The notes below the pieces were generated by a model. The model was not told where the DNA came from, ran no database searches, and saw only the letters and a program-made list of their open reading frames with translations. Positions 2,920 to 17,258 of a stretch of 20,997 nt of DNA are shown here, in pieces. The DNA is from Candidatus Fermentibacteraceae bacterium. GTDB taxonomy: Bacteria; Fermentibacterota; Fermentibacteria; Fermentibacterales; JCC-6. Made by a program: the position numbers and the translations under genes. The DNA is taken from assembly GCA_041686025.1 (NCBI GenBank), contig JAWLEP010000028.1, forward strand, positions 17,499 to 38,495, given 5' to 3'. The first letter of the stretch is position 1; the number at the start of each line of letters is the position of its first letter.

Positions 2920-2920
2920 C

Positions 2921-4231
2921 TTGGAGGTAAGGCTGGCGGGGTTCAACACCGATGCGGAGAACCGCTCGTCCACCCCGGAGACCCTCTCCGCCGCCTACGC
3001 CAGGATCAGCCGGGACCCCAGGCCCATCGGCCTGCTCCGCAGAGAGGCCGCCGCGGAGGTGGAGAGGGCCAGGGAGTCCAACCGGCGAATAGTCTTCGGC
3101 TACGGCCACGGTTCGGTGGCCGAGCACGCCTTCTTCAACTTCGACCTCCTGGACCTCAGCAGGCTGGCCGCCGAGGCGGTGCAGTCTTTCCGACTGGCCA
3201 GCTTTACCGAGAAGTCCCAGCGCTACATCAGGCTTGACAGGGACTGGGTGGTGCCCGAAGAGGTTCCCTCTGGCCTGGGGGACGAATGGGCCGCATCCCT
3301 GGAGGACCTGTTCGGCCTCTACGGCAGGGCCTGCCGGGCCCTGGAGGAGGCCGGCCTTCCCGACGGCCGGGCCCGGGAGGACGCCCGCTACCTGCTGCCC
3401 CTGGCCACATCGTGCCAGATGGGCATGTCGCTGAACGCCAGGGAGCTGGAACACATGATCCGCAGGCTCTCCGCCCATCCCCTGGCGGAGGTCCGCCGGC
3501 TGTCCACCCTTCTGCTGGATGCAGCCGAGGGGGTGGCTCCCTCCCTGCTGCGGCATCTGGAACCGGCGGAGATGGACCGGCTGGCCTGGGAGCACCCCGA
3601 GCCGGGGGACCTGGAGCTGTCCGGTGACGTGGCCCTGGTCCGGGGGGATGACGACGGCGTGGTGGGAGCCAGGCTCCTGCAGAGGGAGGAGGGTGGAGGC
3701 CTGGCGGCTGCCCGGCGCGGCTGGTCCGGCCTGGAAAGCGCCGGCAGGCGGCGGCTGTTCGACGGCGTTCTGGGTTCGCTGGGGTCCTACGACGCCCTTC
3801 CCAGGGAATGGGAGCTGGCCTGCTTCACCTTCGAGGCGGTGGTCTCGGCCAGCGCCTACGCCCAGCTGAAGAGGCACAGGATGAGCACCCAGCTGGTCTC
3901 GTCCTATTCGCCTGCGCTGGGGCTGCGGGTGCCCCCCAGCTTCGCAGAGAACGGTCTGGAGGGGCTCCTGGAGGAAGCCGAAGCCGTTGGCAGGTCCTGG
4001 AGGGAGCGACTGGAGGGCCGGGCTGCGGAGTACATGCTGACCAACGCCCACCGGAGGACCGTGGTCGTGCGGATGAACGCCAGGGAGATGTACCACTTCG
4101 CCAGGCTCAGGCTGGACAGCCACGCCCAGTGGGACATACGGAAGCTGGCCGGGACGATGGTGGACCTGGCCTCCGCAGCCGCGCCCCTCACCATGGCCGC
4201 AGCCGGCGCCAGGGGGCCGGTAGAGGCCTAG
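2921..4231 (+). CDS. thyX: FAD-dependent thymidylate synthase, tandem two-domain form
   Basis: TTG start 1 nt after the GH84 stop. Domain 1 has GYGHGSVAEHA, SFTEKSQRY, AREDARYLLP and NARELEHMI. Domain 2 has QLKRHRMST and MNAREMYHFARLRLDSHAQWDIR. Confidence 0.92.
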   Translation: MEVRLAGFNTDAENRSSTPETLSAAYARISRDPRPIGLLRREAAAEVERARESNRRIVFGYGHGSVAEHAFFNFDLLDLSRLAAEAVQSFRLASFTEKSQRYIRLDRDWVVPEEVPSGLGDEWAASLEDLFGLYGRACRALEEAGLPDGRAREDARYLLPLATSCQMGMSLNARELEHMIRRLSAHPLAEVRRLSTLLLDAAEGVAPSLLRHLEPAEMDRLAWEHPEPGDLELSGDVALVRGDDDGVVGARLLQREEGGGLAAARRGWSGLESAGRRRLFDGVLGSLGSYDALPREWELACFTFEAVVSASAYAQLKRHRMSTQLVSSYSPALGLRVPPSFAENGLEGLLEEAEAVGRSWRERLEGRAAEYMLTNAHRRTVVVRMNAREMYHFARLRLDSHAQWDIRKLAGTMVDLASAAAPLTMAAAGARGPVEA

Positions 4232-7059
4232 CCCCCGGTGATCACCTCCAGGACCCTGGGCTCCCCGGCGTTGTCGCCGAAGGTGGGGGTAAGCCGGAGA
4301 AGGGTCCGGCCGGGGCTGGCTTCCACATCCGAGCCGTAGCGCCACGTGATCCTGCCGCCGTAATCGCCCTCCACCAGCCCGTGAAGGTCCCCGGACACGC
4401 TGGCATCCCTCCAGGTTGCTCCGCCGTCGAGGCTGAAATGGGCGTCCAGGCTCAACGGCCTGCCCTCCGGGTCGGCGAGCTCGAAGGTGACCTCCAGCAC
4501 CCGGGCGTCCCTGTCCTGGGAGACCACGGAGGCCTGCATGAAGGATGGAAGGCTCCGGTTCTCCACGATGATGGGACCCCGAACGTCGGACCGGACGGTG
4601 TCGCGGTCCGCAACCAGGAGCCTGAGCTCCAGCTCGCGGGACTCCACGCCGGGGAAGTCGGCTGAGCTGTTCCACCGGAGGACCGACGAGTAGGACCGGG
4701 GTGTGAAGGGGCCGCTTCTCACAACTCCCTCCGCCCGCACCCAGCCGCCGCCGGCGGTGGTCCTGTGCTCCAGGCCCACCCACAGGCTGTCGCCCTCCAT
4801 GTCATCCAGCACAAACCTGATGGGAACCACTCCCTGAAAGACCTTCCAGGAACCGGGAGAGCGCACCTCCACGGAGGGCAGATGGTTGTTGTCGACATGG
4901 AAAGGCGGGGAGGGAACGGCAACCTCCCTCTCCGACGCTTCCGGGACCACGCGGAACCGGACCTGGGGGTGATCGGCGGCGGGTATGTCCACGTCGGAGT
5001 GCCAGACGATCTCGTACTCGTAGGTGGAGGGCGAGCCCTCCTCGGGCTCGGTTACCGTGGCCGGCCTCCAGGTCTCGCCGCCGTCCAGGGAGTACTCGTA
5101 GCTCATCTCCAGGGGGTCCCCCTCCGAATTGGTGAGCCTGACCCCCAGTGAGACGCCCTCGCGGACCTCCGTCTCCGGGGCCAGTATCTGGCCCGAGGGG
5201 GGCCTGCCAACCGAGTCGGAAAGGCCGGCGATGGTCTGCCAGGGGCCAGGGTCGAGGTCGGCGGCCCGCATCCTCAGGTGCACCCTCTCCGGATCGACAT
5301 CCTCCACATCCGCCGGAATGGGCCAGAAGACCGGTTCTCCGTACATCCAGGGCTCGATCTCCACGGTGGGGCCGGTGAGGCCGGCGCTGCGCCAGGTGCG
5401 GCCGCCGTCTGTGGAGTACTGAGCCTGCAGCTGTATGGTGTCGCCCTCCGGGTCCTCCACGGCGTAGCTGATCCGGAAGCGGTCTCCCTCCAGCCTCGGC
5501 GTGTTGAGGTAGATGGTGGGAGGGCTGTTGTTGTCCAGGTGGAAGACGGGCGTGGTACCGGCTACCCCGGGCCCCCGGGGCGAGAAGGGCGTTATCCTGA
5601 TCATGCATTCGGGAAAGTCGCCGTCGGGAAGGTCCTCCTCCGACCTCCACCGGATTCCCGAGGGACCGGTGCTGTAGCTGGAGGTGGGGTTCCACCTGTA
5701 TCCTGCGTCCGTGGAGTAGGCCACTGCCATGCCCGTGCCTTCCCCCCGCTCTGTCCGATAGGGGACCTCTACCATTCCCGACTGCTCACCGGTAACCTCG
5801 CCCACCTCGGCCACGGGGAGAAATGACATGCCGTAGCTCCCGGTGTTGTATGGGTCGGAGAGGGTCTGCGGCCAGGGACCCAGCGACCCCGACGAAGAGG
5901 ACAAGGAGTAGAGGGCCAGCCTGCCGCCAATCCCGATGGCCGCCAGCTCGTGGCCGCCGTCGCCGGTGACGTCTCCCGCGGCGGGGGTATGCACGATCCG
6001 CTGGCCGTGCTGCAGCGGGAACCCGTCGATTCCGGCACCTTGGGCGTCCCAGGCGTGGATGGTCCCGTCGTCGCATCCCACTATGACGCCCATGCAGCTT
6101 CCGGTGCGGGAGATGATGGGCTGCGTGGGCGCAGCCCCCGGCCTGTTGGGCCATCGCCACGTGCCGGCCAGACTCCCGTCGCCGTCTACCAGATAGACCA
6201 CGCTGTCGCCGGTGCTGACCGCCACCTGGGGACGTGCTATCTCCGGGTCCACAACCCCCAGGGCCGCCGCACCCCTGACCGGCCTGTCATCCAGCATGAA
6301 GGGCCAGTCCTCCAGGGGACCGCCCCGCGAGTCGACTGCGTATAGTTTCCTGTTCTGGGTTGCGAACACGACATCCGTGAGACCGTCGGAGTCGATGTCC
6401 GCGGTAACCGGCATCGTGCCGGCGGGGTATCCCACCTGAATGGGCCAACCCGGCAGAGTGTGTCCCTCCGGGCTTACGGCCGTTACCCTGGTATTGGCCA
6501 GCGCCAGCACCAGGGCCCGTCCCCGCTCCCCGGAGAGCGTCATCTGAACCGGCTGCCAGAGAAGCTCCTCGGGAAGCTCCAGCGGCCACCCCGGCAGGCA
6601 GCGGCCGCTGCGGTCGAGGAGATGTGCCCTGGCGTCGCTGGTGCCCACCGCCAGCTCCCTCTCCCCGTCGGCGTCCAGGTCGCAGGCCGTTACGCCTGTA
6701 ACCGGACGGGCCCCCAGGTCCACGGGCCACCCGGGCTGCTCGACTCCACGGAGGTCCACCAGGTGCAGCAGTCCCCCGTCATCGGCCCAGGCCACCAGCG
6801 GTCCGTCCACGCTCTCCCCGGCCAGGGCAGGCCTCTGGACCACTCCACTTCCGTCGCCCAGGGGAAAGCCGGGCAGGGCTTCGCCTGCGGGACCCCACCC
6901 CCCCAGCCCCCGGTCACCCAGAGGGACGAGGATAGCCATTCCTCCGTGGGAGAGGGGCACCAGCAGGGGACCGCACCGGGGCGTGGCTCCGGTCTCGATC
7001 TCCCAGACAGGCGTCGACGCCGTGATGGCCAGGCAGGCAAGCGCAACCGTTGCCGTCAT
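4228..7059 (-). CDS. Secreted FG-GAP/VCBS-type beta-propeller protein with five C-terminal Asp-box-containing repeat domains
   Basis: Short hydrophobic N-terminus. Seven (P/D)G(W/F)P-like blade motifs. DxDxDG-type loops DLDADGERE, DIDSDGLTD and DVTGDGGHE. WPQ...NTG closing motif. Then repeats of about 100-110 aa with YS(T/L)DGGxTW. The stop overlaps the thyX stop (CTAG). Confidence 0.8.
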   Translation of the reverse strand: MTATVALACLAITASTPVWEIETGATPRCGPLLVPLSHGGMAILVPLGDRGLGGWGPAGEALPGFPLGDGSGVVQRPALAGESVDGPLVAWADDGGLLHLVDLRGVEQPGWPVDLGARPVTGVTACDLDADGERELAVGTSDARAHLLDRSGRCLPGWPLELPEELLWQPVQMTLSGERGRALVLALANTRVTAVSPEGHTLPGWPIQVGYPAGTMPVTADIDSDGLTDVVFATQNRKLYAVDSRGGPLEDWPFMLDDRPVRGAAALGVVDPEIARPQVAVSTGDSVVYLVDGDGSLAGTWRWPNRPGAAPTQPIISRTGSCMGVIVGCDDGTIHAWDAQGAGIDGFPLQHGQRIVHTPAAGDVTGDGGHELAAIGIGGRLALYSLSSSSGSLGPWPQTLSDPYNTGSYGMSFLPVAEVGEVTGEQSGMVEVPYRTERGEGTGMAVAYSTDAGYRWNPTSSYSTGPSGIRWRSEEDLPDGDFPECMIRITPFSPRGPGVAGTTPVFHLDNNSPPTIYLNTPRLEGDRFRISYAVEDPEGDTIQLQAQYSTDGGRTWRSAGLTGPTVEIEPWMYGEPVFWPIPADVEDVDPERVHLRMRAADLDPGPWQTIAGLSDSVGRPPSGQILAPETEVREGVSLGVRLTNSEGDPLEMSYEYSLDGGETWRPATVTEPEEGSPSTYEYEIVWHSDVDIPAADHPQVRFRVVPEASEREVAVPSPPFHVDNNHLPSVEVRSPGSWKVFQGVVPIRFVLDDMEGDSLWVGLEHRTTAGGGWVRAEGVVRSGPFTPRSYSSVLRWNSSADFPGVESRELELRLLVADRDTVRSDVRGPIIVENRSLPSFMQASVVSQDRDARVLEVTFELADPEGRPLSLDAHFSLDGGATWRDASVSGDLHGLVEGDYGGRITWRYGSDVEASPGRTLLRLTPTFGDNAGEPRVLEVITGG
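4240..5815 (-). repeat. Five tandem protein-level repeats of about 100-110 aa (Ig/Fn3-like fold inferred)
   Basis: YSTDAGYRW, YSTDGGRTW, YSLDGGETW, HRTTAGGGW and FSLDGGATW are spaced about 300-330 nt apart. Repeats 2-5 are preceded by DPEGD/NSEGD/DMEGD/DPEGR. Linkers include FHLDNN.P, FHVDNN.P and IVENR..P. Boundaries are approximate. Confidence 0.75.
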
Positions 7060-7277: not shown

Positions 7278-7306
7278 TTGACCATATGGATACGGCAGAG
7301 AATATT
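7278..7306 (+). promoter_or_regulatory. Possible sigma70-type promoter for the Agl-Glt-like operon
   Basis: TTGACC-N17-AATATT, about 60 nt upstream of ATG 7366, in a relatively AT-rich intergenic region. Confidence 0.35.
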
Positions 7307-7365: not shown

Positions 7366-8295
7366 ATGCGGCACTGCTCGTTGTTGGTCTTGGCGGCCGT
7401 GGGAGCCGCATACGCCGGTTCGCTGCCCTTCACCAGAAGCGGCGTCTTCGACTCCCCGGATGCGTACATCCTGGGTCATACCGAGGTGGAGGTGGAGCTG
7501 GGTGCTTCCGCCTACACCGTCGAGGACTCCACCGGCAGCACCGACAGCGAGTTCATGCTCACCGGCCACCTGGACATCGGCGCCTTCGACTACGGACAGG
7601 TGGGAATCAGCTACCTGGGCGAGGGAGGTATTGCGGGCAACGTAAAGGTCCGGATCCTGCAGGAGGGGATAGACGTCCCCGCCTTCGCCATAGGAGTGGA
7701 CAACATCTCCACCGAGGAGTACATAGAGTGCTTCAAGGTGGACGGGGAGTACTACGGCTACGACCATGCCCAGAACTGGTCCGCCTACGGCGTGGCCTCG
7801 AAGGACCTCCGGTACCTCCTGGGGCTGGAGGCCACCGTGAGCCTGGGCATAGGAATAGGCCGGTTCGTGGGCGTAATTGAGAACGGGGCCCTGGGGGTGG
7901 GAAGCCAGGTGGCCCACGGCCTCTTCGGCTCTGTGGTGTACAGGCCCAGCGACGTCATTGCGGTGGGCATGGAGCAGGACGGCCGGGACCTGAACCTCGG
8001 GTTCAGCTACGACATCAGCAGGTACTTCACGCTCCAGTTCGCCTGGGCGGAGTTCGAGCAGGTCGTCTTCCCGCCTGAGAACCAGAATCAGCAGGACATC
8101 ATGCAGAACGCCAAGTACTCCTTCGGCATCAGATCCCAGTTCGGGCCCCTCCTGGGTGCGCGGAGGATGGAGCTGGAGCGGGAGCGCCAGAGGATCGAGC
8201 GAGCCCGGGACAGGCTCGAGGAGCTGGAGGCGCGCAGGCGGTCCGCAGAGGCCGAGCTGCAGAGGCTCCGCGATCTTCTCGAGGAACGCAACTAG
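7366..8295 (+). CDS. Putative outer-membrane beta-barrel protein (YjbH-like) with C-terminal coiled coil
   Basis: GGAGGA RBS at 7355-7360 favours ATG 7366 over 7327. Signal peptide ends AAYA. Motifs GVFDSPDAYIL, NVKVRILQE...PAFAIGVDNI, SAYGVASK, GLFGSV.Y and EQDGRDLNLGFSY with alternating beta-strand patterns. The last ~45 aa are a highly charged heptad coiled coil. Confidence 0.65.
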   Translation: MRHCSLLVLAAVGAAYAGSLPFTRSGVFDSPDAYILGHTEVEVELGASAYTVEDSTGSTDSEFMLTGHLDIGAFDYGQVGISYLGEGGIAGNVKVRILQEGIDVPAFAIGVDNISTEEYIECFKVDGEYYGYDHAQNWSAYGVASKDLRYLLGLEATVSLGIGIGRFVGVIENGALGVGSQVAHGLFGSVVYRPSDVIAVGMEQDGRDLNLGFSYDISRYFTLQFAWAEFEQVVFPPENQNQQDIMQNAKYSFGIRSQFGPLLGARRMELERERQRIERARDRLEELEARRRSAEAELQRLRDLLEERN

Positions 8296-8307
8296 CCGGA
8301 AGGCCGC

Positions 8308-11300
8308 ATGACCAGGATTCTACTCACAGCAACCCTGCTGGCGATAGCTGTGCCGGCGCTGGCCCAGGAGGAAGGGAGCCAGGAGGACATCTCCGTGCTC
8401 CTCCAGAGGGCCAGGGCCGAGCGCAGCAGCCTCGAGGAGCAGATCGCCCGCGAGGAGGAGCGACTCACGCGGATAGAGGCCGAGCTGGTCCAGCTCCGCA
8501 GGCAGAGGGCGATAATGTCCAGTGCCCAGAGTGCCTTCGAGCTGGGTGAGGATCTGTACAACTCCGGTTCCATCGTCTGGGCCCGGGACGCCTTCGGGTC
8601 CGTGGTGGACAACTTTCCCGAATCGTCCTACTTCCCCAGCGCCCTGTTCCGTCTGGAGCTGATAGCTTTCCAGCTGCAGGATTTCGAGGGCACGCTGGAG
8701 TACGCCGACCGGCTCCGGCAGGCGGCGCCCGAGTTCCAGCACATGGACCTGGCGCAGATCGTGGGTGGACTGGCCTATCACAACCTGGGTGAGTTCGGAA
8801 GCGCCAGGCAGCGGCTCTCGCAGGTGCCTCCCACCTCGGAGTACGCGCCTCTGGCCGACTACCTTCGGGCGGTGGGATACGTGGAGGAGGGCGACATAGC
8901 CTCGGCCAAGTCGCTGTTCAACGAGATCATCGACAACGCCGGCAGGTCCCGAAGCGAGGTGGCCCTGGCGGACCGTTCCCGCATAGCCCTGGCCCAGATA
9001 ATGGTGGAGGAGGAGGGTCAGTACGAGGAGGCCCTGTCCCTCTACGACCGGGTGTCTCCCTTCAGCTCCTACTACGACGTCTCCATGCTGGGCAAGGTGT
9101 GGACGCTGATGCGGCTGGAACGCTACCAGGATGCCTACAACCTCTGCGAGAGGGTCATCGAGGAGGTGCCGGGCTCCGACCTTCGCTCCGAGTTCGAGCT
9201 GGCCATGGCCAACTGCGCTCTGGGAGCGGAGGACCTGCAGATAGCCATAGCCAGGTACGAGGCTCTTCTGCGCCAGAACCTGGACGCTGAGGACTACGAC
9301 CTTCTCCTGGGCGATGACGAGTCGGTCTCCGAGGCGCAGTACGAGGCGGAGCGGGAGCGCCTGGAGAGGATTCGGGTGGGGCTTTCGGAGCTGAAGGAGG
9401 AGGCCTACGCCCAGGGCGACCTGGAACTGGTGGAGATGATCGAGGAGGAGGAGAACGCGCTGAGGCAGCTGTTCGTGGAGATCGGTGGACTGCAGACCGA
9501 GCTCTCCTTTCCGACGATGGAGGACGAAGAGAGCCTTCAGCGCCAGATCCGCAGGCTGATCTCCCGCAGCAAGGAGTCCACCCAGGCTCTGGCCGTCTCC
9601 GCCGAGGAGGTGCGCGAGCTGGCCCGGAACAGGGGCACCGAGCAGGACCGACGGGAGCTCGGCCAGCTGGAGACGGAGATAGAGAGGATAAGGCTGGCCC
9701 TGCAGGACCTCTCCTCGAAGTTCCAGGCAGGCATGGCCCAGGACCACGACTGGGTCCAGGAGACCAACTACGGAATAGCCATCGCCCGCTTCATGGAGCG
9801 GGAGCTGAAGCGGGACTCCCTCTCGTACATAAGCAACGTATACGACCGCAGGATAGAGGAGGCCTACGAGGAAGGGGACAGCAGCCTTGCCCAGAGCCTG
9901 ATCGAAGAGCGGGCGGCGAAGGCCCAGGGCCTGAGCCGGCGCATCAACCAGGCGGCCCACGAGTCCGCCGGCTACTTCGAGGAGTACCTGGCGAGCTTCC
10001 CCGACTCCCGCTTCGTTCCTGACGTTCTGGTGCGGCTTGCCCAGCTCTACTACGACATCGACAAGAGCGATTATCTGGACAGGATGGCGGAGTCGGAGAC
10101 CTTCCTCCCCGAGGACTACTCCCGCTCAATAGAGCTCTACGACCGCGTTCTAACGAACTACCCGGACAGCGAGGTGGAGGACGTGGCCCTCTACTCCATG
10201 GGATACTGCCTGACGCAGATGGGCAATCCCACCGAGGGGGTCAGCAAGTACCGGACCCTACTGGAAAGGCATTCGGGCAGCGACCTGGCCGCGGAGACCT
10301 GCATGCGGGTTGGTCACTACTACTTCGAGAGCTTCGAGTACGACAGCGCCTACGCCTACTTCTCCCGGATCCTCGACTACCCCGACGCGGACCCGGACGT
10401 CTACCAGCGCAGCGTCTACGAGCTGGGCTGGACCGAGTACATGCGCAGCAACTACCTCCACTCCGCCGCCATCTTCGGCTACCTGATCGAGGACAGCCAG
10501 CTGATGGACTCCCTGGGCATACCCAGGAGGGGCGGAGCCATGGTGGACGAGGCCATGGAGTACCTGGCGCACGACTTCATGGAGCAGAAGGAAGGCCCGC
10601 CGGTGCCCCTGGCCACTGACTTCCTGGACCGGTTGGGGAACGAAGAGGTAAGCTACACGGTATTGCACCACATGGCCCGCTTCTACGGCGAGCAGGGATA
10701 CTGGTCGGACGCCATAAGCGCCTACGAAGCGCTGCTGGACCGGCACCCCACCCACGAGCAGGCTCCCTTCTTCCAGGCCGAGATCGCTTCCGCTTACGAG
10801 GGGCTGGGGGACCACGAGGCAGCCACGGAGGCCCGCGAGGAGCTGGTGGAGAGCTACGGTGTCGAAAGCGACTGGGCGGAGGCAGTGGGCCCGGAGACCG
10901 CCCGGGCCGCGGTGGACTCGCTGCGGGGCACCTCCCTGGAGCAGGCCATTGGCTACTACTATACGAAGGCCCAGGATTCCGCCGACGAAGCCCCCCAGCA
11001 GAGCCGGAGCCACTACAACCAGCTTATACCCAGGATCGAGTCCTATCTGGAGGAGTTCGGAGGTACCAGGCAGGCCTACGACTTCAAGTTCCTTTTGGCA
11101 GGCGCTTACTACGCCCTGGAGCAGTACGTGAGCGCGGGCGACACCTACATGGAGGTGGGGGCCGACAGCATCTCGGCCCAGAGACGCCAGGACGCCGCCA
11201 GCAACGCCTGGAGCGCCTACATGATAGCCTACGGTGAGCAGTCCGGGATCGACAGCGCCCAGCTGCGGCAGAAGCAGGTGGAGGCGGCCAACTTCTACGT

Positions 11301-12849
11301 GGACAACTTCCCCGACGGGGAGAACGCCGCCCGGTTCCTGTTCGGCGTGGCCGGAAACCTCTACAACGCCGGCGAATACACCGGTGCCCGCCAGATGTAC
11401 AGCAGGATCTACAACGAGTACCCCAACTCGGAGTACATAGCCAGGTCCGCGAGGTTCATAGCCGCTACCTACGAGGCGGAGGAGATGTATGCCGAGGCCG
11501 AGGACTGGTACGGAAGGGCGTCCCAGGCGGTGGCCAGAACCGGGGAGGACCTGGGGGAGGACTTCGACCAGCTGGCGGCGGCCGCGGCGTACAGGGACGC
11601 CGAGAGCCTTGCCGGGTCGGAGGACACCCAGTCCATAGTGAACGCGGCCCGGCGATTCGAGGAGTCCGCCCGGTCGCATCCCGGCTCGGACATAGCCCCC
11701 AGTGCCCTCTACGATGCCGGTGAGACCTATGCCAGGGCCGGCGCCATCGAGGACGCCATAAGGGTCTTCACCGAGCTGGCCGACCAGTACCCCCAGAGCG
11801 AGCTGGCCCCCAAGGGAATGCTCAGGGCCGCCTTCCTCGCCCGGGAGGCCGGCCGCAACGAGCTGGCCGGAGACACCTACCTGGAGACGTACAGCAGGTT
11901 TCCCTCCGCCGAGAACGTGGGCACCGCCCTGTACAGCGCCGCCATCTCCTACGAGGAAGCCGAGCGCATGGAGCTGGCGGCGAACGTCTACGACATGATG
12001 ATCGACCAGGAGGCCGGCACGGCGGAATCCATGGTGCACGTCTACGGCAAGTACGGAAGGTACCTGCACGAGCGCGGCCAGATCTCCCGGGCCAGGGAGA
12101 TGTACCAGAGCTGCATCGACACCTACGACCAGCACCGGGCCGGCGACGTCTACTATCCGGCGCAGTCCGCCTTCTATCTGGGCGAGATCGCCTACGAGGA
12201 CTACGCCGCCCAGGAGACGAACTCCGAGACCGCCCAGATGAAGACCCAGCTCATGCAGCAGGTGGAGCAGTGGTACAGCAAGGCCATCAGCTACCGGACC
12301 GACTACTACTTTATGGCCGCCTGCGCCAGGGCGGGGGAGCTCTACGAGGACTACGCCAACGCCATCGCCTTCATGGACCCGCCCCCGGAGATCGCAGACG
12401 ACCCGGAGGCGGTGGACGTTTTCTACAACCAGCTCTACACCGAGTTCTACGAGCCCAAGATGCAGCAGGCCCAGACCGTCTACAGTACCGCGGTGGAAAG
12501 GGCCGTGAACCAGGACATCGAGAACGAGTGGGTGGACCGGGCGGTGGAGAACCTGGAGCTTCTCGCCCCGGGCGCGCTGGAGGAGCTGGGCTACGTTACC
12601 GAGGAGCAGGCCGCGGCGGACACCACCGAAGCCGGCGGGCCCGAGGGCCCGGACACCGAAGATACCGACGGGGAGGCCGAGGAGGGTTTCCAGCAGCAGG
12701 AAGACGATCAGACCGGGGAGGAAGAGACGGAGGCCGACTACGAAGAGGACGCCGGGACCGGGTCGGAGGACGTGGGGGAGACACCCGCCCCCGAGGAGCC
12801 CGAAGAGGACGAAGACGGCGGAGGAGGTTGCTTCCTGTGGCCCTTCTAG
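8308..12849 (+). CDS. Large periplasmic TPR protein, apparent GltC-like + GltD(AgmU)-like fusion, with acidic tail
   Basis: Signal peptide VPALA|QEE. Many BamD/CpoB-like TPRs (FPESSY, FPDSRF, YPDSEV, YPNSEY, HPGSDIAP, YPQSELAP). The C-terminal block AACARAGELYEDYA...DPPPE...Y..L...EPK..QA..VY...NEWVDRA..L...P resembles GltD-family C-termini as I recall them. Confidence 0.8.
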   Translation: MTRILLTATLLAIAVPALAQEEGSQEDISVLLQRARAERSSLEEQIAREEERLTRIEAELVQLRRQRAIMSSAQSAFELGEDLYNSGSIVWARDAFGSVVDNFPESSYFPSALFRLELIAFQLQDFEGTLEYADRLRQAAPEFQHMDLAQIVGGLAYHNLGEFGSARQRLSQVPPTSEYAPLADYLRAVGYVEEGDIASAKSLFNEIIDNAGRSRSEVALADRSRIALAQIMVEEEGQYEEALSLYDRVSPFSSYYDVSMLGKVWTLMRLERYQDAYNLCERVIEEVPGSDLRSEFELAMANCALGAEDLQIAIARYEALLRQNLDAEDYDLLLGDDESVSEAQYEAERERLERIRVGLSELKEEAYAQGDLELVEMIEEEENALRQLFVEIGGLQTELSFPTMEDEESLQRQIRRLISRSKESTQALAVSAEEVRELARNRGTEQDRRELGQLETEIERIRLALQDLSSKFQAGMAQDHDWVQETNYGIAIARFMERELKRDSLSYISNVYDRRIEEAYEEGDSSLAQSLIEERAAKAQGLSRRINQAAHESAGYFEEYLASFPDSRFVPDVLVRLAQLYYDIDKSDYLDRMAESETFLPEDYSRSIELYDRVLTNYPDSEVEDVALYSMGYCLTQMGNPTEGVSKYRTLLERHSGSDLAAETCMRVGHYYFESFEYDSAYAYFSRILDYPDADPDVYQRSVYELGWTEYMRSNYLHSAAIFGYLIEDSQLMDSLGIPRRGGAMVDEAMEYLAHDFMEQKEGPPVPLATDFLDRLGNEEVSYTVLHHMARFYGEQGYWSDAISAYEALLDRHPTHEQAPFFQAEIASAYEGLGDHEAATEAREELVESYGVESDWAEAVGPETARAAVDSLRGTSLEQAIGYYYTKAQDSADEAPQQSRSHYNQLIPRIESYLEEFGGTRQAYDFKFLLAGAYYALEQYVSAGDTYMEVGADSISAQRRQDAASNAWSAYMIAYGEQSGIDSAQLRQKQVEAANFYVDNFPDGENAARFLFGVAGNLYNAGEYTGARQMYSRIYNEYPNSEYIARSARFIAATYEAEEMYAEAEDWYGRASQAVARTGEDLGEDFDQLAAAAAYRDAESLAGSEDTQSIVNAARRFEESARSHPGSDIAPSALYDAGETYARAGAIEDAIRVFTELADQYPQSELAPKGMLRAAFLAREAGRNELAGDTYLETYSRFPSAENVGTALYSAAISYEEAERMELAANVYDMMIDQEAGTAESMVHVYGKYGRYLHERGQISRAREMYQSCIDTYDQHRAGDVYYPAQSAFYLGEIAYEDYAAQETNSETAQMKTQLMQQVEQWYSKAISYRTDYYFMAACARAGELYEDYANAIAFMDPPPEIADDPEAVDVFYNQLYTEFYEPKMQQAQTVYSTAVERAVNQDIENEWVDRAVENLELLAPGALEELGYVTEEQAAADTTEAGGPEGPDTEDTDGEAEEGFQQQEDDQTGEEETEADYEEDAGTGSEDVGETPAPEEPEEDEDGGGGCFLWPF

Positions 12850-13331
12850 ACCGGCGCTCACGCTGCTGCAGGCTTTGCGTCCTGACTACTGTCTCCGTTC
12901 TGCTGATGGCCGTTGCCGGCCAGGCATTCGCCCAGCCCGAAGAGGGGGGGGGAGCCGGCGCCTACACCGACGAGGAGGGCCGGCTCATCCTGGAGGAGAT
13001 AACCATCAAGGGCGAGCTGCGTACCCCGCAGGCCATATTCATGATGCTCAAGACCACTCCCAACCTCAGCAACGTTCTGCTGGAGCGCAGCTTCATTGAA
13101 GACGTTGTCAGTCCAATCTACCCGGGGGCATTTGCCGGGGAGCCCTCCTTTGGAACCGCCCAGAATGTGCATATACTTCCCTGGTGGGCCAGATACGGAT
13201 CGGTGGCGGCCTTTGCCGGGCTGTCCGCCTACAGGTACGGAACCGATGACAGCGAGCAGGGCCTGATCTTCGGCATTATCGCGGGCCTCGATCTCGCCGG
13301 AAATCTGATCCTTGATCTCGGAGGGCGCTGA
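12837..13331 (+). CDS. Small exported GltF/CglF-like protein with two C-terminal hydrophobic segments
   Basis: Same frame as track ORF 12270..13331. The true start is probably GTG 12837, 9 nt after GGAGGAGG and overlapping the end of the TPR gene. Signal peptide ends AFA|QPEEG. Core LEEITIKGELRTPQAIFMM...ERSFIEDVVSPI matches the 'I.G....P.....S F...' pattern of GltF-like proteins. Confidence 0.6.
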   Translation: MALLDRRSRCCRLCVLTTVSVLLMAVAGQAFAQPEEGGGAGAYTDEEGRLILEEITIKGELRTPQAIFMMLKTTPNLSNVLLERSFIEDVVSPIYPGAFAGEPSFGTAQNVHILPWWARYGSVAAFAGLSAYRYGTDDSEQGLIFGIIAGLDLAGNLILDLGGR

Positions 13332-13357
13332 ATCGGCGCCGTGAGAGGAGATTGTTG

Positions 13358-14227
13358 ATGCGTCGCACTCTACTCCCAGTACTCTTGTTGCTTGGTATCT
13401 TCGCTTTCACGGGAGCTGCCTTCGCGCAGCCGGAGGAGGGTGCCGAACCCGACACCACAGCCACCGACAGCGTCGCGGTAGAGGACACCACAGAGGTGGC
13501 CGAGGAGCCCGAGCCGGAACCCGAGCAGGAGGACACCACGGCGGTGGAGGCGGACACCACCGTTGCCGCCGAAGAGCTGGAAGGGGGCGGCGGTCTCTTC
13601 TCCAGCATCGCCGAGTTCTTCCGCAAGGGCGGACCCGCCATGTGGGTCATCCTGGTTATCCTGGCTGCGGGCCTGGCCATCTTCGTGGAGAGGTTCATCT
13701 TCCTGTTCATCATCGCCAACATCAAGCCCGAGGAGTTCATGGCCCGCATCTCCGAGCTGATCCGGAAGGGCAGCATCGAGGGTGCCATCGCCGAGGCCTC
13801 CGAGAGGGACGCCCCCCTGGCCAGGATCATCGAGGCGGCCCTCCGCAACTACCGGGGCACCGAGCGCGACATCCAGAACGCCGTGGACGAGATGGCCCTG
13901 GCGGAGCTTCCCAGGCTGAACGCCAGGACCTCTTACCTGGCCATGTTCGCCAACATCTCCACCATGGTTGGTCTGCTGGGTACGATATTCGGACTCATCC
14001 AGGCGTTCTCCGCCGTGGCCGCCGCCGACCCGGAGACCAAGAGCACGCTGCTGGCCAACGGAATCTCCCAGGCCATGAACACCACCGCCTTCGGTCTCAT
14101 CGGCGCCATACCGCAGCTTCTGGCACATTCCTTCCTCACCGCCAAGACAGACCGGCTGGTGGATGACATCGACAGGTACTCGGTCATGGTCATCAACATG
14201 CTCGGCCAGGCCAGGAAGGAGGGCTGA
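13358..14227 (+). CDS. MotA/TolQ/ExbB proton-channel protein, AglR-like, with signal peptide and acidic N-terminal extension
   Basis: AGGAG RBS 7 nt before ATG 13358. Motifs GGPAMWVIL...IFVERF, LAMFANISTMVGLLGTIFGLIQAFSAVAAADPETKSTLLANGISQAMNTTAFGL. The ANxxT..GLLGT form without Pro and the ADP..K..LLA.GIS motif are typical of the AglR subfamily. Confidence 0.93.
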   Translation: MRRTLLPVLLLLGIFAFTGAAFAQPEEGAEPDTTATDSVAVEDTTEVAEEPEPEPEQEDTTAVEADTTVAAEELEGGGGLFSSIAEFFRKGGPAMWVILVILAAGLAIFVERFIFLFIIANIKPEEFMARISELIRKGSIEGAIAEASERDAPLARIIEAALRNYRGTERDIQNAVDEMALAELPRLNARTSYLAMFANISTMVGLLGTIFGLIQAFSAVAAADPETKSTLLANGISQAMNTTAFGLIGAIPQLLAHSFLTAKTDRLVDDIDRYSVMVINMLGQARKEG

Positions 14228-14784
14228 TGGCGCAGGGCGCCACCAAGCGCAGCCACAGGAAGAAGCACCAGGCGGAGCTCGACCTGCTGCCGGTGATGAA
14301 CCTCTTCTGCGTGATCATCCCGTTCCTGCTGCTCAGCGCTTCCTTTCTGGAGATCACCACCATCACCATGTCGCAGACCCAGGGCATCAATCCCAGCGCC
14401 GGCGGGGCGGTCACCGACCTGGCCAAATCCGAGGAGGAGAGGGTCCAGGCAAAGGTGGTGATGACCGACCAGGAGCTCTTCGTGGGCACCGCCTTCGGTC
14501 TGACCTCCGTGGGAAGGTCTTTCCAGGTAAGGGACAACGGCGAGACCTACGCCACCTTTGACTTCGACCAGCTGGAGCAGATGGCGGGCGAGATGAGAGA
14601 CACCCTGATGAACCACTACGACATCGAGTTCCGCAAGATCGTCGTCCTGACCACGGAGACCATGCGCTACGAGAACGTGATCAGGGCCATCGACGCGGTG
14701 GGCAAGGTGGGATTCACCGAGCCCGGTCTGCAGGTGGCACCCTCCGGCAGCGTGGAGGGCGAGGCCGAGAGGGGGCTGCAGTGA
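14227..14784 (+). CDS. ExbD/TolR family protein 1 (AglQ position); Asn at the usual channel-Asp site
   Basis: TGATG coupling to the upstream gene. Basic N-terminus, TM segment ELDLLPVMNLFCVIIPFLL, periplasmic motif MRYENVIRAIDAV...GF. Confidence 0.88.
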   Translation: MAQGATKRSHRKKHQAELDLLPVMNLFCVIIPFLLLSASFLEITTITMSQTQGINPSAGGAVTDLAKSEEERVQAKVVMTDQELFVGTAFGLTSVGRSFQVRDNGETYATFDFDQLEQMAGEMRDTLMNHYDIEFRKIVVLTTETMRYENVIRAIDAVGKVGFTEPGLQVAPSGSVEGEAERGLQ

Positions 14785-15314
14785 GCGCTCCCTCCAAGCG
14801 GCACGTGCCCCTGCTGTTGGGCTACAACAAGACGAAGGCCTTCAGCCGCAAGGGTGACAAAAAGGCCGGGCTCAACCTGACCTCGATGATAGACATGTTC
14901 ACAATACTGGTGGTGTTTCTGCTGAAGAGCTACAGCGCCGAGGGCCAGCTGGTCACCGTAAGCGAGGCTCTGACCCTGCCCAGGGCCACCTCCGAGCAGA
15001 GAATTGAGATGAAGCTGGAGATCGAGATCAACCGGGAAGCTGTGGTAGTCGACGGAGACCCCGTGGTGCAGGTGGACCAGCAGCTGCTCTCCACAGGGGG
15101 CCCCATACCCTCCCTGGTGACCAGGCTCGACGATCACATGGAATACACGAGGCAGATGAAGGGTACCATCACCGAGGACGAGCAGAAGATCAACATCCAG
15201 GGTGATGTCGCCATACCGGCGGTCCTCGTCCAGCGGGTGATGGCCAGCTGCTCCGAGGCCGGCTTCAGCCTGCAGAACCTGGAGGTAATCAAGGAAGAGG
15301 GTGGGCGCCCATGA
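14781..15314 (+). CDS. ExbD/TolR family protein 2, AglS-like
   Basis: GTGA overlap with the upstream stop. TM motif LNLTSMIDMFTILVVFLLKSYS, then LTLPRAT and INIQGD..IP...VQRVMASC.EAGF. Confidence 0.9.
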   Translation: MSAPSKRHVPLLLGYNKTKAFSRKGDKKAGLNLTSMIDMFTILVVFLLKSYSAEGQLVTVSEALTLPRATSEQRIEMKLEIEINREAVVVDGDPVVQVDQQLLSTGGPIPSLVTRLDDHMEYTRQMKGTITEDEQKINIQGDVAIPAVLVQRVMASCSEAGFSLQNLEVIKEEGGRP

Positions 15315-17194
15315 GCCCGGCGGCGGAGAAGAAGGTTCTGGCAGTAGCCGTAATGCGTGACGGCAGGGTGATCAACAAGCTGATACCGGGGAAGGAACCG
15401 GTGAGGCTGGGGACTGGCTACAACAACCAGATCGTGGCCGAGGAGGCCGACGTTCCCGACTCCATGATCATCCTCTCCCCGGGGGACGATTCCGACACCT
15501 GGGTTCTCAGGCTCCAGGATGCCATGCACGCCAGGATAGAGTCCGCCGACGGCTCCAAGCTGAACTTCGCCGATCTCAAGGACCTGGGGATCTTCCCCCA
15601 GGACGAGGACGGCAACTACCTCCTCAATGTGAAGTACGAGGACCAGGGCCAGATAACGGTGGACCCCTACACCATTCACTTCGGTTTCATACAGCCCCCC
15701 AAGCGGGAGGAGAAACCGAAGCCAAAGGCCAAGGCAAGGAAAACGGAGGAGAAGCCCGTCCCGGTGAAGAAGCCGGAGGCCGCGGAGAACCTGGCTCTGA
15801 AGGTGGTTGTGGAGCGCCCCGGGGAGAAGAAGCGGGAGATATTCCCCAACGCCGGGATAATGACCATCGGCACCGCCGACTACAACACGGTGAGCATCGG
15901 GAGCGCGGACCTTCCGCGGATACACACCCTTCTTGAGCCCAAGGACGGCAAGTACCTGCTCCGCCTGCCGGAGGGCCTGGGCGGCGGCGTCGAGGTGAAG
16001 GGCACCATCGTGCCTTTCAGCACGCTGATAGACCGCAACCTCCTGAAGCAGGAGAAGCCCGGAGAGCCCTACGAGTGGGAGATGGACCGGAACGTCTCCG
16101 GCATGTTCAAGGCCGGGGACACCGAGATCTTCTTCTCCTTCGCCCGGCCTCCCAAAGAGACAATGCCCAAGCCGAAACCGGAGCCCAAGAAGATCCCCAA
16201 GAAGGAGTACAAGCCCTCCCGCTACGACTGGAAGGCGTTTGCCGTCCGTCCGCACGACGGGATCGTATTCAAGGGCCAGAAGGGCGAGATCAGCCGAATG
16301 GAGGTCATACTGGGCATAGGCCTGGCAGTGGCCCTCCTGGTGGGCGCCGTTCTGGACAGGCTGGTGGTGGTCACCGAGGTCAGCAAGTCGGAGATGCTGC
16401 GCCGGGCTCCCACCGCCAGGGTGGCCAGCCTCGCCGAGACCCCCGAGCAGCAGACGGCCGGCATCGGTGAAGAGGTGATCGGCGACATGCCCACCGGCGA
16501 GGAGGTGGAAGTGGCCTCCGGAGGAGGCGGCGGGCCCGCCGGCGGCGGGGCAGAGGGCCCTGCAGGTGCCTCGGCGGGATCCGACGCCGCCGACCAGGTG
16601 ATGAGCAGCATCGGATTCGCCGCCTACGGTACGGGAGCCTCGGGCGGGGGTGCCGGCATAGTCACAGACCTCCAGTCGGCGGCCTCCTCGGGTCTCGGGC
16701 TGGCCTCCGGTGAGGCCGGACAGGCCATGATCGCAGGGGCGGAGGGAGGCGGCTCCGGCGGCATAAGCTCGGTTGTCGGGGCGGGAGGCGGCGTGGCCTC
16801 CTCGGCCGAGACCGTATCCCAGAGCGAGGTGGAGGAGGTGCACCGCGCGGCGCAGGTATCCTTCTCCGCGTCGGGCTCCGGAGAGGCCCTGGACCTGGGC
16901 TACCGCGACCTCACCGATATCCACAGACGGGTCAACGTAATAAAGATGAGGGTTCAGACGGCCTACGAGAGCCTGTTGCGCAGCAACCCATCCGCCGGCG
17001 GGCGCATCACCCTGGGCTTCAGCATCACCCCGGGCGGCTCGGTAACCGCAGTGTCCGTCAACGCTCCCGGAGGGCTGTCCAGCCTCAGGCCCACCATAGA
17101 GGCGGCCATTTCCAGCGTGAACTTCGGCCCGGCCCCGGAGCAGACAGAGAACCTGCCCATGCAGGTCTCCTTCAATCTGGTCCCGCCGGAGTAG
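15311..17194 (+). CDS. GltG/PglI-like TonB-type energy transducer: two FHA-like domains, one TM helix, Gly-rich linker, AgmX/PglI-type TonB C-terminal domain
   Basis: ATGA overlap with the upstream stop. Two similar N-terminal beta domains, each followed by a Lys/Pro linker. TM VILGIGLAVALLVGAVL. Gly/Ala/Ser-rich linker. C-terminus RVQTAYESLLRSNPSAGGRITLGFSITPGGSV...F.P.....VSFNLVP. Confidence 0.8.
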   Translation: MSPAAEKKVLAVAVMRDGRVINKLIPGKEPVRLGTGYNNQIVAEEADVPDSMIILSPGDDSDTWVLRLQDAMHARIESADGSKLNFADLKDLGIFPQDEDGNYLLNVKYEDQGQITVDPYTIHFGFIQPPKREEKPKPKAKARKTEEKPVPVKKPEAAENLALKVVVERPGEKKREIFPNAGIMTIGTADYNTVSIGSADLPRIHTLLEPKDGKYLLRLPEGLGGGVEVKGTIVPFSTLIDRNLLKQEKPGEPYEWEMDRNVSGMFKAGDTEIFFSFARPPKETMPKPKPEPKKIPKKEYKPSRYDWKAFAVRPHDGIVFKGQKGEISRMEVILGIGLAVALLVGAVLDRLVVVTEVSKSEMLRRAPTARVASLAETPEQQTAGIGEEVIGDMPTGEEVEVASGGGGGPAGGGAEGPAGASAGSDAADQVMSSIGFAAYGTGASGGGAGIVTDLQSAASSGLGLASGEAGQAMIAGAEGGGSGGISSVVGAGGGVASSAETVSQSEVEEVHRAAQVSFSASGSGEALDLGYRDLTDIHRRVNVIKMRVQTAYESLLRSNPSAGGRITLGFSITPGGSVTAVSVNAPGGLSSLRPTIEAAISSVNFGPAPEQTENLPMQVSFNLVPPE

Positions 17195-17216
17195 CCGAGA
17201 CCAGCATCGCGTATTC

Positions 17217-17246
17217 GAAGGGCCCCTCCGGGGGCCCTTCTCTTTT
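17217..17246 (+). terminator. Intrinsic terminator of the Agl-Glt-like operon
   Basis: Perfect 10-bp stem GAAGGGCCCC-TCCG-GGGGCCCTTC followed by TCTTTT, 22 nt after the stop. Confidence 0.85.
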
Positions 17247-17258
17247 CCGGCCCCGTAT

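What the first reader, a model, noticed from the sequence alone, without database searches (positions are those of the whole stretch)
7366..17246. Self-contained Agl-Glt-like proton-driven trans-envelope machine in one operon
Seen in sequence: seven co-oriented, tightly coupled genes (TGATG, GTGA and ATGA overlaps) ending in one terminator. They encode an OM barrel, a giant TPR protein, a small exported protein, an ExbB-type subunit, two ExbD-type subunits and a TonB-like protein with a cytoplasmic domain. Established: Myxococcus gliding and Nfs spore-coat assembly use the AglRQS motor plus Glt proteins, with motor and glt genes at separate loci. Simpler core clusters of unknown function occur in other phyla. 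Inference: this is a compact variant of that core with motor, transducer, scaffold and its own OM barrel together. There is no TonB-dependent receptor, tolB or pal, so neither ordinary Ton uptake nor Tol-Pal fits. It could drive surface motility, surface polymer or protein transport, or contact-dependent functions in a lineage with no described system of this kind.
Basis: partly seen in the sequence, partly recalled or inferred. Interest (0 to 1): 0.88.

Follow-up and report, generated by a model that had tools for sequence, protein, structure and literature searches.

The report
Single-aspartate Agl-Glt motor in Fermentibacterota
Seven linked genes kept across an uncultured bacterial phylum encode a variant of the envelope-spanning motor that Myxococcus uses to glide, which here likely pulls on its own outer-membrane channel to put out or arrange surface material rather than to move the cell.

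Summary
The operon is real and sits in Ca. Fermentibacterota. Gene order is the same in 19 of 20 relatives' loci (the 20th is cut by a contig end); the motor gene is in 66 of 70 genomes. The ExbB-like gene groups with Myxococcus AglR (100/100), apart from the genome's own Ton and Tol-Pal motors. The TPR giant is a GltD homologue (E 2e-62) fused to a second TPR protein; the TonB-like gene is GltG-like; the small gene is weakly GltF-like; the barrel is a predicted 12-stranded FapF/YjbH-type channel. So it is a variant of the Agl-Glt 'core complex' described in 2011, which is normally one operon: compactness is not new. No separate GltE or GltJ was found. New here: the TPR fusion, a duplicated FHA-like domain, and Asn at the AglQ Asp28 site whose mutation paralyses the Myxococcus motor. 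Function is untested; surface-cargo export or arrangement is likeliest. All 70 genomes carry the T9SS translocon SprA and none has GldM, so this motor might power secretion, but 47 Bacteroidota genomes have SprA with neither. The scan noted similar operons before in KSB1 and other lineages.

The parts
7278..7306 (+). sigma-70-like promoter candidate, 60 nt before g1
   Evidence: consensus match 9 of 12; weak, not tested
7366..8295 (+). g1: signal peptide, N-terminal plug segment, predicted 12-stranded outer-membrane barrel of FapF/COG4313/YjbH-N type, C-terminal coiled-coil helix (about 45 aa)
   Evidence: AF2 model pLDDT 79.9, 12 strands plus helix; VIA Z 17.3, rmsd 3.7, 196 aligned to 4rl8; FapF Z 15.1, rmsd 3.1, 188 aligned; weak Pfam YjbH in 17 of 19 orthologues at E<=1, best 9e-5; Atlas YjbH cluster 0.93
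8308..12849 (+). g2: exported 1513-aa TPR scaffold; residues about 546-1440 GltD homologue, residues about 20-545 a second TPR protein in the GltC position (two genes in other phyla), acidic tail
   Evidence: hhalign to GltD 853 columns E 1.9e-62; N half to GltC 377 columns E 4e-9 but GltD 7e-9 and GltE 6e-8; GltD HMM best genome hit 1e-71, next 2e-5; split form
12837..13331 (+). g3: small exported protein with a conserved GltF-like, TonB-box-like strand and a C-terminal hydrophobic hairpin
   Evidence: start; hhalign to KSB1-type small proteins E 2e-13, to myxococcal GltF E 0.002, reversed control 0.28; weak predicted binding to g7 CTD
13352..14227 (+). g4: AglR-clade MotA/TolQ/ExbB stator subunit with signal peptide and acidic N-terminal extension; both channel threonines kept (T211, T245)
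   Evidence: PF01618; tree 100/100
14227..14784 (+). g5: ExbD-like subunit in the AglQ position; Asn25 (14299-14301) replaces the channel Asp
   Evidence: PF02472; E 2e-7 to AglQ; Asn in 20 of 20 Fermentibacterota orthologues
14781..15314 (+). g6: AglS-like ExbD subunit; channel Asp38 (14892-14894) kept
   Evidence: 86 bits to AglS against at most 20 for ordinary ExbD/TolR
15311..17194 (+). g7: GltG-like transducer: two tandem degenerate FHA-like cytoplasmic domains (about 6-130, 159-282), TM helix 330-348, Gly/Ser-rich linker, TonB-type AgmX/PglI C-terminal domain (534-627)
   Evidence: NF033760 1e-11 (far under its cut-off), NF033768 1.5e-9 (over cut-off); each N domain matches GltG's membrane-proximal domain, E 3.5e-11 and 1e-9; TM
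17217..17248 (+). intrinsic terminator-like hairpin and T-rich tail
4228..7059 (-). divergent 943-aa exported FG-GAP/BNR-repeat protein; possible cargo, membership not shown
   Evidence: Pfam FG-GAP, BNR; adjacent in 19 of 19 full loci but in none of 73 loci of other lineages

Best explanation
This operon encodes a derived Agl-Glt core machine: an AglRQS-type ion-driven inner-membrane motor that likely pulls, through a GltG-like arm, on a periplasmic TPR scaffold tied to a 12-stranded outer-membrane barrel, and so likely exports or arranges surface cargo (polymer or protein) without moving the cell. Steps: (1) five g4 subunits are predicted to ring a g5/g6 heterodimer, with ion flow carried by the single Asp of g6 (homology shown, stoichiometry inferred from the Myxococcus model). 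(2) g7 would dock on the stator by its TM helix and FHA-like domain (inferred from PMC11761067). (3) Its TonB-type C-terminal domain would grip the GltF-like strand of g3 (weakly predicted here) and lie along the GltD part of g2 (inferred). (4) The fused N-terminal half of g2 would hold the barrel g1, perhaps by its coiled coil (untested). (5) Force would gate or shift the plugged barrel (inferred). Confidence that it is an Agl-Glt core derivative: about 0.9; the figure given is for the function.
For: Motor identity: 54-row clade with AglR at 100/100, excluding E. coli ExbB/TolQ and the genome's own Ton and Tol subunits; g4 profile scores AglR 207 bits, its paralogue 172, the other 6 of 8 MotA_ExbB genes of that genome at most 74. 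GltD and GltG homology with controls. g7 has GltG's layout, TM helix at 330-348 in both (PMC11761067). g7-CTD with g3: score 0.58, best control 0.02, contacts agree at least 87%, partner pLDDT at least 54; the mark was reached by 116 of 157 solved and 2 of 215 mismatched pairs, but at 0.60 or under by only 18 solved and both mismatches, so weak, and likeness to TonB/TonB-box complexes may explain it; it matches the GltF-GltG contact modelled in PMC11761067. Against motility and for a basal transporter: PMC3169522 finds the core insufficient for gliding, PMC3858216 proposes a basal transport machine and shows Agl-Nfs moving a surface polysaccharide. g1's fold family holds a polypeptide exporter (FapF) and the first barrel of the capsule protein YjbH/GfcD. 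Housekeeping-like conservation: g4 in 66 of 70 genomes (46 of 46 good ones), g7 in 63 of 70 (45 of 46).
Against: No cargo is identified and no experiment exists. No polysaccharide or export gene is in the operon. g1 has a stand-alone paralogue in 5 of 5 genomes tested, with no TPR or motor gene beside it in the 3 loci printed, so such barrels can exist without the motor. The natural Asn in g5 equals the D28N change that stops the Myxococcus motor (PMC3858216), so activity depends on one Asp being enough. GltC identity is not specific. MglA-family GTPases (69 of 70 genomes) and a reported rod shape with MreB (PMC5030696) keep gliding possible.
Confidence: 0.5

Rival explanations
1. It is a minimal gliding or surface-motility machine: motor and scaffold move an adhesin (for example the divergent FG-GAP protein or a T9SS-secreted protein) along the cell, steered by MglA.
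For: Closest tested function of the family. In the tree Fermentibacterota g4 is sister to AglR, but only at 82/53. MglB-MglB-MglA cluster and two more MglA-like genes in the genome. Rod shape, MreB, no flagella (PMC5030696 passages). Propeller-type exported protein next to the operon in 19 of 19 loci.
Against: No GltJ-type second arm: only 2 AgmX/PglI domains over cut-off, g7 and a secreted TPR protein. No hit to shallow GltH, NfsA or NfsH profiles. g7 lacks a match to GltG's N-terminal FHA (E 0.14 and 6e-4). The core alone does not give gliding (PMC3169522). MglA may serve the type IV pili present. One member is described as non-motile from genes and transcripts (PMC5763382).
Confidence: 0.2
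2. It replaces the GldLM motor and energises the SprA translocon of a type IX-like secretion system, or moves its secreted surface proteins.
For: SprA in 70 of 70 Fermentibacterota (67 over cut-off), GldM in 0 of 70 while 3 of 3 positive controls ring; 69 of 76 T9SS C-terminal-domain matches over cut-off in this genome and a weak PorV-family hit. In 101 Bacteroidota genomes the 6 with an AglS-type gene and the 8 with a GltD-like gene all have SprA and none has GldM; 0 of 25 GldM genomes have either. Earlier scan notes report core operons joined to PorV-like barrels and CTD cargo (not checked).
Against: 47 of the 55 SprA-positive, GldM-negative Bacteroidota have neither marker, so SprA does not need this motor. 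Core operons occur in genomes where SprA was not found (G070, G074). sprA is unlinked here (contig C27) and in 3 other genomes inspected. The exclusion from GldM genomes is confounded by kinship. g2's hit to PorW/SprE is TPR-level only (55 bits against a cut-off of 250).
Confidence: 0.15
3. It is a private Ton-like importer: g7 pulls, through g3, the plug of the small barrel g1 to take up a solute such as an oligosaccharide or hydrophobic compound.
For: g1's top fold matches are small channels (COG4313 Z 17.3; KdgM Z 16.3, rmsd 2.6, 158 aligned). The like-ordered Fibrobacter cluster FSU_2396-2403 is up on cellulose and was proposed for cellodextrin import (PMC6851124 passages).
Against: A 1500-aa scaffold is not needed for import; the genome has an ordinary Ton locus with a receptor; no catabolic or regulatory genes are linked; the barrel slot is filled by unlike proteins across lineages.
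Confidence: 0.1
4. The motor no longer conducts ions and the complex is a passive tether between the two membranes.
For: g5 carries Asn at the Asp whose loss abolishes proton conductance in AglQ (PMC3858216).
Against: g6 keeps Asp in all 102 rows and g4 keeps both threonines; the Asn is itself conserved across phyla (20 of 20, 75 of 79, 3 of 3), which looks like a selected asymmetry.
Confidence: 0.05

Closest known systems
Agl-Glt 'core complex' (aglR, aglQ, aglS, gltC, gltD, gltE, gltG plus one extra gene; PMC3169522)
   Same: One operon; AglR-clade stator, two unlike ExbD-type subunits, GltG-like transducer, GltD-homologous TPR scaffold; function unknown.
   Different: No separate GltE gene; the GltC-position and GltD proteins are fused; a 12-stranded barrel with a coiled coil leads the operon; FHA-like domain duplicated; Asn in the AglQ-position subunit; host phylum not among those reported in the parts read (supplementary Figure S1 not seen).
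Myxococcus xanthus Agl-Glt gliding and Agl-Nfs spore-coat machines
   Same: Homologous motor, GltD, GltG (same TM position and domain order), probable GltF; MglA-family genes in the genome.
   Different: Genes not dispersed; no GltJ, no detectable GltA/B/H, no canonical N-terminal FHA; AglQ Asp28 absent; no adhesin identified.
Fibrobacter succinogenes FSU_2396-2403 (OmpA, two TPR proteins, ExbB, two ExbD, TonB; PMC6851124)
   Same: Same order of gene types; a Fibrobacteraceae locus with that order (L130/L156) falls in the same AglR clade. Equating it with FSU_2396-2403 is by gene order only.
   Different: OmpA-family first gene and two separate TPR genes there; barrel plus fused TPR here.
Ton (ExbB-ExbD-TonB) and Tol-Pal
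   Same: Same 5:2 motor superfamily and TonB-type C-terminal domain.
   Different: Different clade; no receptor, TolB or Pal linked; both systems are encoded separately in this genome (contigs C81, C4).
FapF / COG4313 / YjbH-GfcD first barrel
   Same: Predicted 12-stranded plugged barrel.
   Different: About 10% identity; C-terminal coiled coil; linked to a motor.

Membership tests
Agl-Glt core complex | AglR-clade MotA/TolQ/ExbB subunit | tested here: met
   54-row clade 100/100, bootstrap not fully settled
Agl-Glt core complex | Two distinct ExbD-type subunits related to AglQ and AglS, following aglR | tested here: met
   g6-AglS E 2e-25; g5-AglQ E 2e-7 and same position
Agl-Glt core complex | GltG: cytoplasmic FHA-type domain, one TM helix, TonB-type C-terminal domain | tested here: met
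Agl-Glt core complex | GltD homologue | tested here: met
   853 columns, E 1.9e-62; controls GltE 8e-10, GltC 7e-5; best genome hit
Agl-Glt core complex | GltC homologue | tested here: inconclusive
   g2 N half aligns over 377 columns at E 4e-9 and sits in the GltC position, but GltD and GltE score alike; GltC HMM does not find g2
Agl-Glt core complex | Separate GltE gene in the cluster | tested here: not met
   g3 follows g2 directly; best GltE-profile hit is an unlinked TPR protein on C4. Hence a variant, not a by-definition member
Agl-Glt core complex | Genes clustered in one region | tested here: met
Myxococcus gliding machine | GltF bridging protein | tested here: inconclusive
   hhalign E 0.002, probability 13%, reversed control 0.28; weak predicted binding
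Myxococcus gliding machine | GltJ second TonB-like arm | tested here: not met
   NF033768 over cut-off only in g7 and a secreted TPR protein; genome 94.75% complete
Myxococcus gliding machine | GltA/GltB/GltH outer-membrane barrels | tested here: inconclusive
   no hit with shallow profiles; no solved Glt barrel to compare with the g1 model
Myxococcus gliding machine | Essential AglQ Asp28 | tested here: not met
   Asn25
Myxococcus gliding machine | GltI, GltK, CglB, AglZ | not tested
   no profile searched
Myxococcus gliding machine | Ion-driven movement of cells | not testable with these tools
   uncultured host
Ton system | ExbB-clade stator with a TonB-dependent receptor | tested here: not met
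   own Ton locus on C81
Tol-Pal | tolQRA linked to tolB and pal | tested here: not met
   own Tol-Pal on C4
Type IX secretion motor | GldL/GldM-type subunits | tested here: not met
   subunits are ExbB/ExbD type; GldM in 0 of 70 genomes; GldL not searched in this phylum
Type IX secretion motor | Physical or functional coupling to SprA | not testable with these tools
   only co-occurrence was examined

The most novel reading that the evidence does not exclude
A single-aspartate, possibly sodium-driven AglRQS motor replaces GldLM and powers type IX-like protein secretion or adhesin movement in Fermentibacterota and other FCB lineages, making the Agl-Glt core an ancestral FCB secretion energiser from which myxobacterial gliding was built.
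Probability: 0.15. Interest if true: 0.85.

Novelty: new variant of a known kind. Interest (0 to 1): 0.5.

Why it matters
The job of the Agl-Glt core, from which myxobacterial gliding and spore-coat assembly arose, has been open since 2011. This is one of its most reduced forms (seven genes, scaffold in one chain, own barrel) and is near-universal in a phylum, which points to a basic envelope role and gives a compact construct for structure work. The conserved Asn/Asp asymmetry of the shaft bears directly on how 5:2 motors work: it predicts a heterodimer that runs on one acidic site, the opposite one to that needed in Myxococcus. The SprA-without-GldM pattern poses a testable question about what energises type IX-like secretion outside Bacteroidia.

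Tried and rejected
Single-sequence fold of g1 failed (pLDDT 39.6); redone with 126 sequences. Pfam gave nothing at E<=0.01 for g1, g3 and g7; NCBIfam nothing for g1, g3, g5, g6. PDB sequence searches with the g7 and g1 profiles gave only TonB (E 0.09) and coiled coils. Atlas search of g3 gave no usable hit. No plasmid match for g6. Two ExbD genes and a signal-bearing ExbB are not Agl markers: the genome's ordinary Ton locus has both. The conserved hydrophobic tail of g2 looked like a sorting signal but is found in only 7 of 19 relatives and coincides with g3's ribosome site and start codon; rejected. g1 versus the 345-aa first gene of KSB1-type operons: hhalign probability 88%, E 3e-6, partly from the coiled coil; orthology not shown. 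g7 linker shows no similarity to GltG's (E 0.08). GldM search on the own genome alone had no ringing control; repeated with controls. A motor gene near sprA in one KSB1-type genome is an ordinary ExbB-type gene. The two MglA-like genes on C8 have no Glt-like neighbours. RNA-library contigs: the stretch 2334-3667 was uncovered in 4 of 4 runs, not used as evidence. The original D28N paper was not held. A strict T9SS-replacement rule was rejected (47 genomes with neither).
Full report
OBSERVATION. The seven genes are there, on the + strand from 7366 to 17194, followed by a terminator-like hairpin at 17217-17240 and the convergent groEL. Junction gaps are 12, -13, 20, -1, -4 and -4 nt. The small gene has no usable ATG; it most likely starts at GTG 12837 inside the end of the TPR gene, as relatives show. 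Named homologues place the host in Ca. Fermentibacterota; the genome is 2.70 Mb, 94.75% complete.

CONSERVATION. The g4 orthologue (E<=1e-70) is in 66 of 70 genomes of the phylum; the four misses are 61-86% complete. g7 is in 63 of 70, 45 of 46 good genomes. I fetched 20 loci, chosen for long contigs across genera; 19 hold all seven genes in order (one with frameshifts) and one is cut by a contig end. Contigs from RNA libraries of two salt-lake studies cover pieces of each of the seven genes with 0-1 differences (4 of 9 runs laid). The runs were found with this stretch and may hold DNA, so transcription is suggested, not shown.

NOT TON, NOT TOL. The genome has three MotA/TolQ/ExbB genes. One lies in receptor-exbB-exbD-exbD-tonB (C81), one in tolQ-tolR-tolA-tolB-pal-cpoB (C4). 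The operon's motor is the third.

THE MOTOR IS AglRQS-TYPE. As reference I used an unnamed myxococcal genome (G175) whose GltG, GltE, GltF (CglF) and GltH (CglE) pass their NCBIfam cut-offs and whose motor genes are 245, 162 and 194 aa with Asp28 and Asp41, matching the AglR/Q/S lengths in Table 1 of PMC3169522. A tree of 80 ExbB-family proteins (26 of the 30 PF01618 loci from 5 genomes, 4 left out as duplicate, fragmentary or unscored; 42 genes from loci found with an AglS-like profile; 8 Fermentibacterota; 4 Ton/Tol references) puts g4 in a 54-row clade with AglR at 100/100, branch length 0.75 (quick tree). The group was defined after the quick tree, and most of its rows were selected through g6 similarity. 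Order inside the clade is unresolved. g6 scores 86 bits to AglS, 42 to its paralogue and at most 20 to ordinary ExbD/TolR.

A SINGLE-ASP SHAFT. At the column of E. coli ExbD Asp25 and AglQ Asp28, g5 has Asn, as do 20 of 20 Fermentibacterota orthologues, 75 of 79 AglQ-position proteins in the loci (7 of those loci are Fermentibacterota) and 3 of 3 from Bacteroidota. g6 and all 101 other AglS-position rows keep Asp; g4 keeps both threonines. AglQ D28N abolishes proton conductance, gliding and sporulation in M. xanthus (PMC3858216 passages). The simplest reading is an obligate heterodimer with one working acidic site, on the other subunit. The coupling ion is open: a relative is reported to make ATP on a sodium motive force (PMC5763382 passages). 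I found no paper on this asymmetry, but closed-access work was not searchable.

SCAFFOLD, BRIDGE, ARM. g2 residues 546-1440 align colinearly with myxococcal GltD (24-row profile; 853 columns, E 1.9e-62), far above GltE and GltC controls. Residues 20-545 align with GltC over 377 columns, but no better by E-value than with other TPR proteins. In other lineages these halves are two genes: none of 22 non-Fermentibacterota TPR proteins over 1300 aa aligns to g2's first 520 residues. g7 has two tandem copies (E 3e-10 to each other) of GltG's membrane-proximal FHA-like domain and no clear match to its N-terminal FHA; 30 of 30 transducers detected in other lineages have one copy. In the published model that domain and the TM helix dock on AglR, and a GltF strand pairs with GltG's TonB-type domain (PMC11761067, parts 2-4 of 7 read; PMC9389320 passages liken GltF to a TonB box). 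g3 is homologous to the small gene in the same slot of KSB1-type operons (E 2e-13) and weakly to GltF (E 0.002). The g7-g3 complex prediction gave weak support: 0.58 against a best control of 0.02, contacts agreeing at least 87%, partner pLDDT at least 54; 116 of 157 solved and 2 of 215 mismatched pairs reach the mark, but at 0.60 or under only 18 solved and both mismatches; likeness to solved TonB complexes may contribute.

BARREL. With 126 sequences AlphaFold2 gives 12 strands, an N-terminal segment of about 25 residues and a 44-residue C-terminal helix (pLDDT 79.9, pTM 0.71). Best matches are 12-stranded channels: COG4313 (Z 17.3), KdgM (16.3), EstA (15.2), FapF (15.1) (Foldseek one search agrees on FapF, TM 0.41). 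Weak YjbH hits fit, since YjbH/GfcD's first barrel is described as FapF-type (PMC8592465 passages). A shared fold shows no function.

HOW WIDESPREAD. Of the 73 outside Fermentibacterota (KSB1, Calditrichota, Fibrobacterota, Nitrospinae, Deltaproteobacteria by record title), 60 have a GltD-like gene and an AglR-like gene beside the match; 17 start with a 345-aa exported protein with a coiled tail. PMC3169522 (parts 2-5 of 8 read; supplements not seen and they list its carriers) already describes this core as one operon in Gammaproteobacteria, Geobacter and Fibrobacter, of unknown function and insufficient for gliding. Searches for the lineage names with Agl terms listed no paper joining them (25 of 47 rows listed in the last). 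Earlier notes of this scan report like operons in KSB1 and others; none overlaps this locus.

FUNCTION. Gliding: MglA-family genes are in 69 of 70 genomes, but type IV pili are present, and GltJ and recognisable GltA/B/H are not. Secretion: SprA in 70 of 70, GldM in 0 of 70, 69 CTD matches over cut-off in this genome. In a 101-genome Bacteroidota sample SprA is in 80, GldM in 25, AglS-type in 6, GltD-like (over 290 bits; two of them were in the profile) in 8, with no overlap between GldM and the core markers; 47 SprA genomes have neither. That allows but does not favour a replacement role, and kinship confounds it. Import: small-channel fold and the Fibrobacter proteomics proposal (PMC6851124 passages). 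Surface-cargo handling fits the only non-motile function shown for the family (Agl-Nfs), the fold family of g1 and the housekeeping-like conservation; I put it at 0.5, gliding 0.2, T9SS energiser 0.15, import 0.1, passive tether 0.05. Other papers seen as passages only: PMC12204202 (section 8; no GltG mention), PMC9170169, PMC5030696, PMC9120999. The eight-stranded nature of OmpA-type barrels and the 5:2 stoichiometry for this complex are recalled or inferred, not tested.

VERDICT. Real, conserved, and a derived variant of a known but functionally unexplained machine. It works like Agl-Glt by homology; it fails strict membership of the seven-gene core (no GltE) and of the gliding machine. Interest 0.5.

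Noticed in passing
window 4228-7059 (-): 943-aa exported FG-GAP/BNR-repeat protein, divergent from the operon in 19 of 19 full loci; no T9SS CTD match on this contig. groES/EL and a ThyX-like gene are also syntenic, so the link may be plain gene-order conservation.
   Followed up: partly
window 2921-4231 (-): 436-aa protein that reads like a duplicated ThyX (thymidylate synthase) domain by eye; no Pfam or NCBIfam hit at E<=0.01.
   Followed up: no
window 1753-2919 (+): GH84-like beta-N-acetylglucosaminidase domain protein (PF07555), between a formiminotransferase-cyclodeaminase-like gene and the ThyX-like gene.
   Followed up: no
G000 C14:1-696; L213-L217: A stand-alone paralogue of the g1 barrel with coiled coil in 5 of 5 genomes tested; near a nucleotide-sugar epimerase-like gene in 2 of 3 loci printed, in one directly after a polysaccharide gene cluster.
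   Followed up: partly
G000 C5:49212-50339; L023, L025, L026, L037 after g7: Extra AgmX/PglI C-terminal-domain proteins: a secreted TPR fusion on C5, and a small one right after g7 in four relatives. Possible soluble partners of the complex.
   Followed up: no
G000 C27:371-10866: sprA lies directly upstream of pilB- and pilT-family ATPase genes on the same strand; an ATP-driven link to the translocon is another possibility for GldLM-less secretion.
   Followed up: no
G000 C22:39877-42048, C8:42160-42762, C8:52329-52907: Three MglA-family GTPases; two lie about 10 kb apart in many genomes of the phylum.
   Followed up: partly
L098:4520-11239, L110:7006-13696: In two Fibrobacterota loci aglRQS and a TonB-like gene run straight into genes that read like wza, wzc, a sugar transferase and glycosyltransferases (by eye), a hint for a capsule link in that subgroup.
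   Followed up: no
   Followed up: no
Bacteroidota sample G200-G299: 47 genomes have SprA with neither GldM nor core markers: what energises their translocon is unexplained.
   Followed up: no
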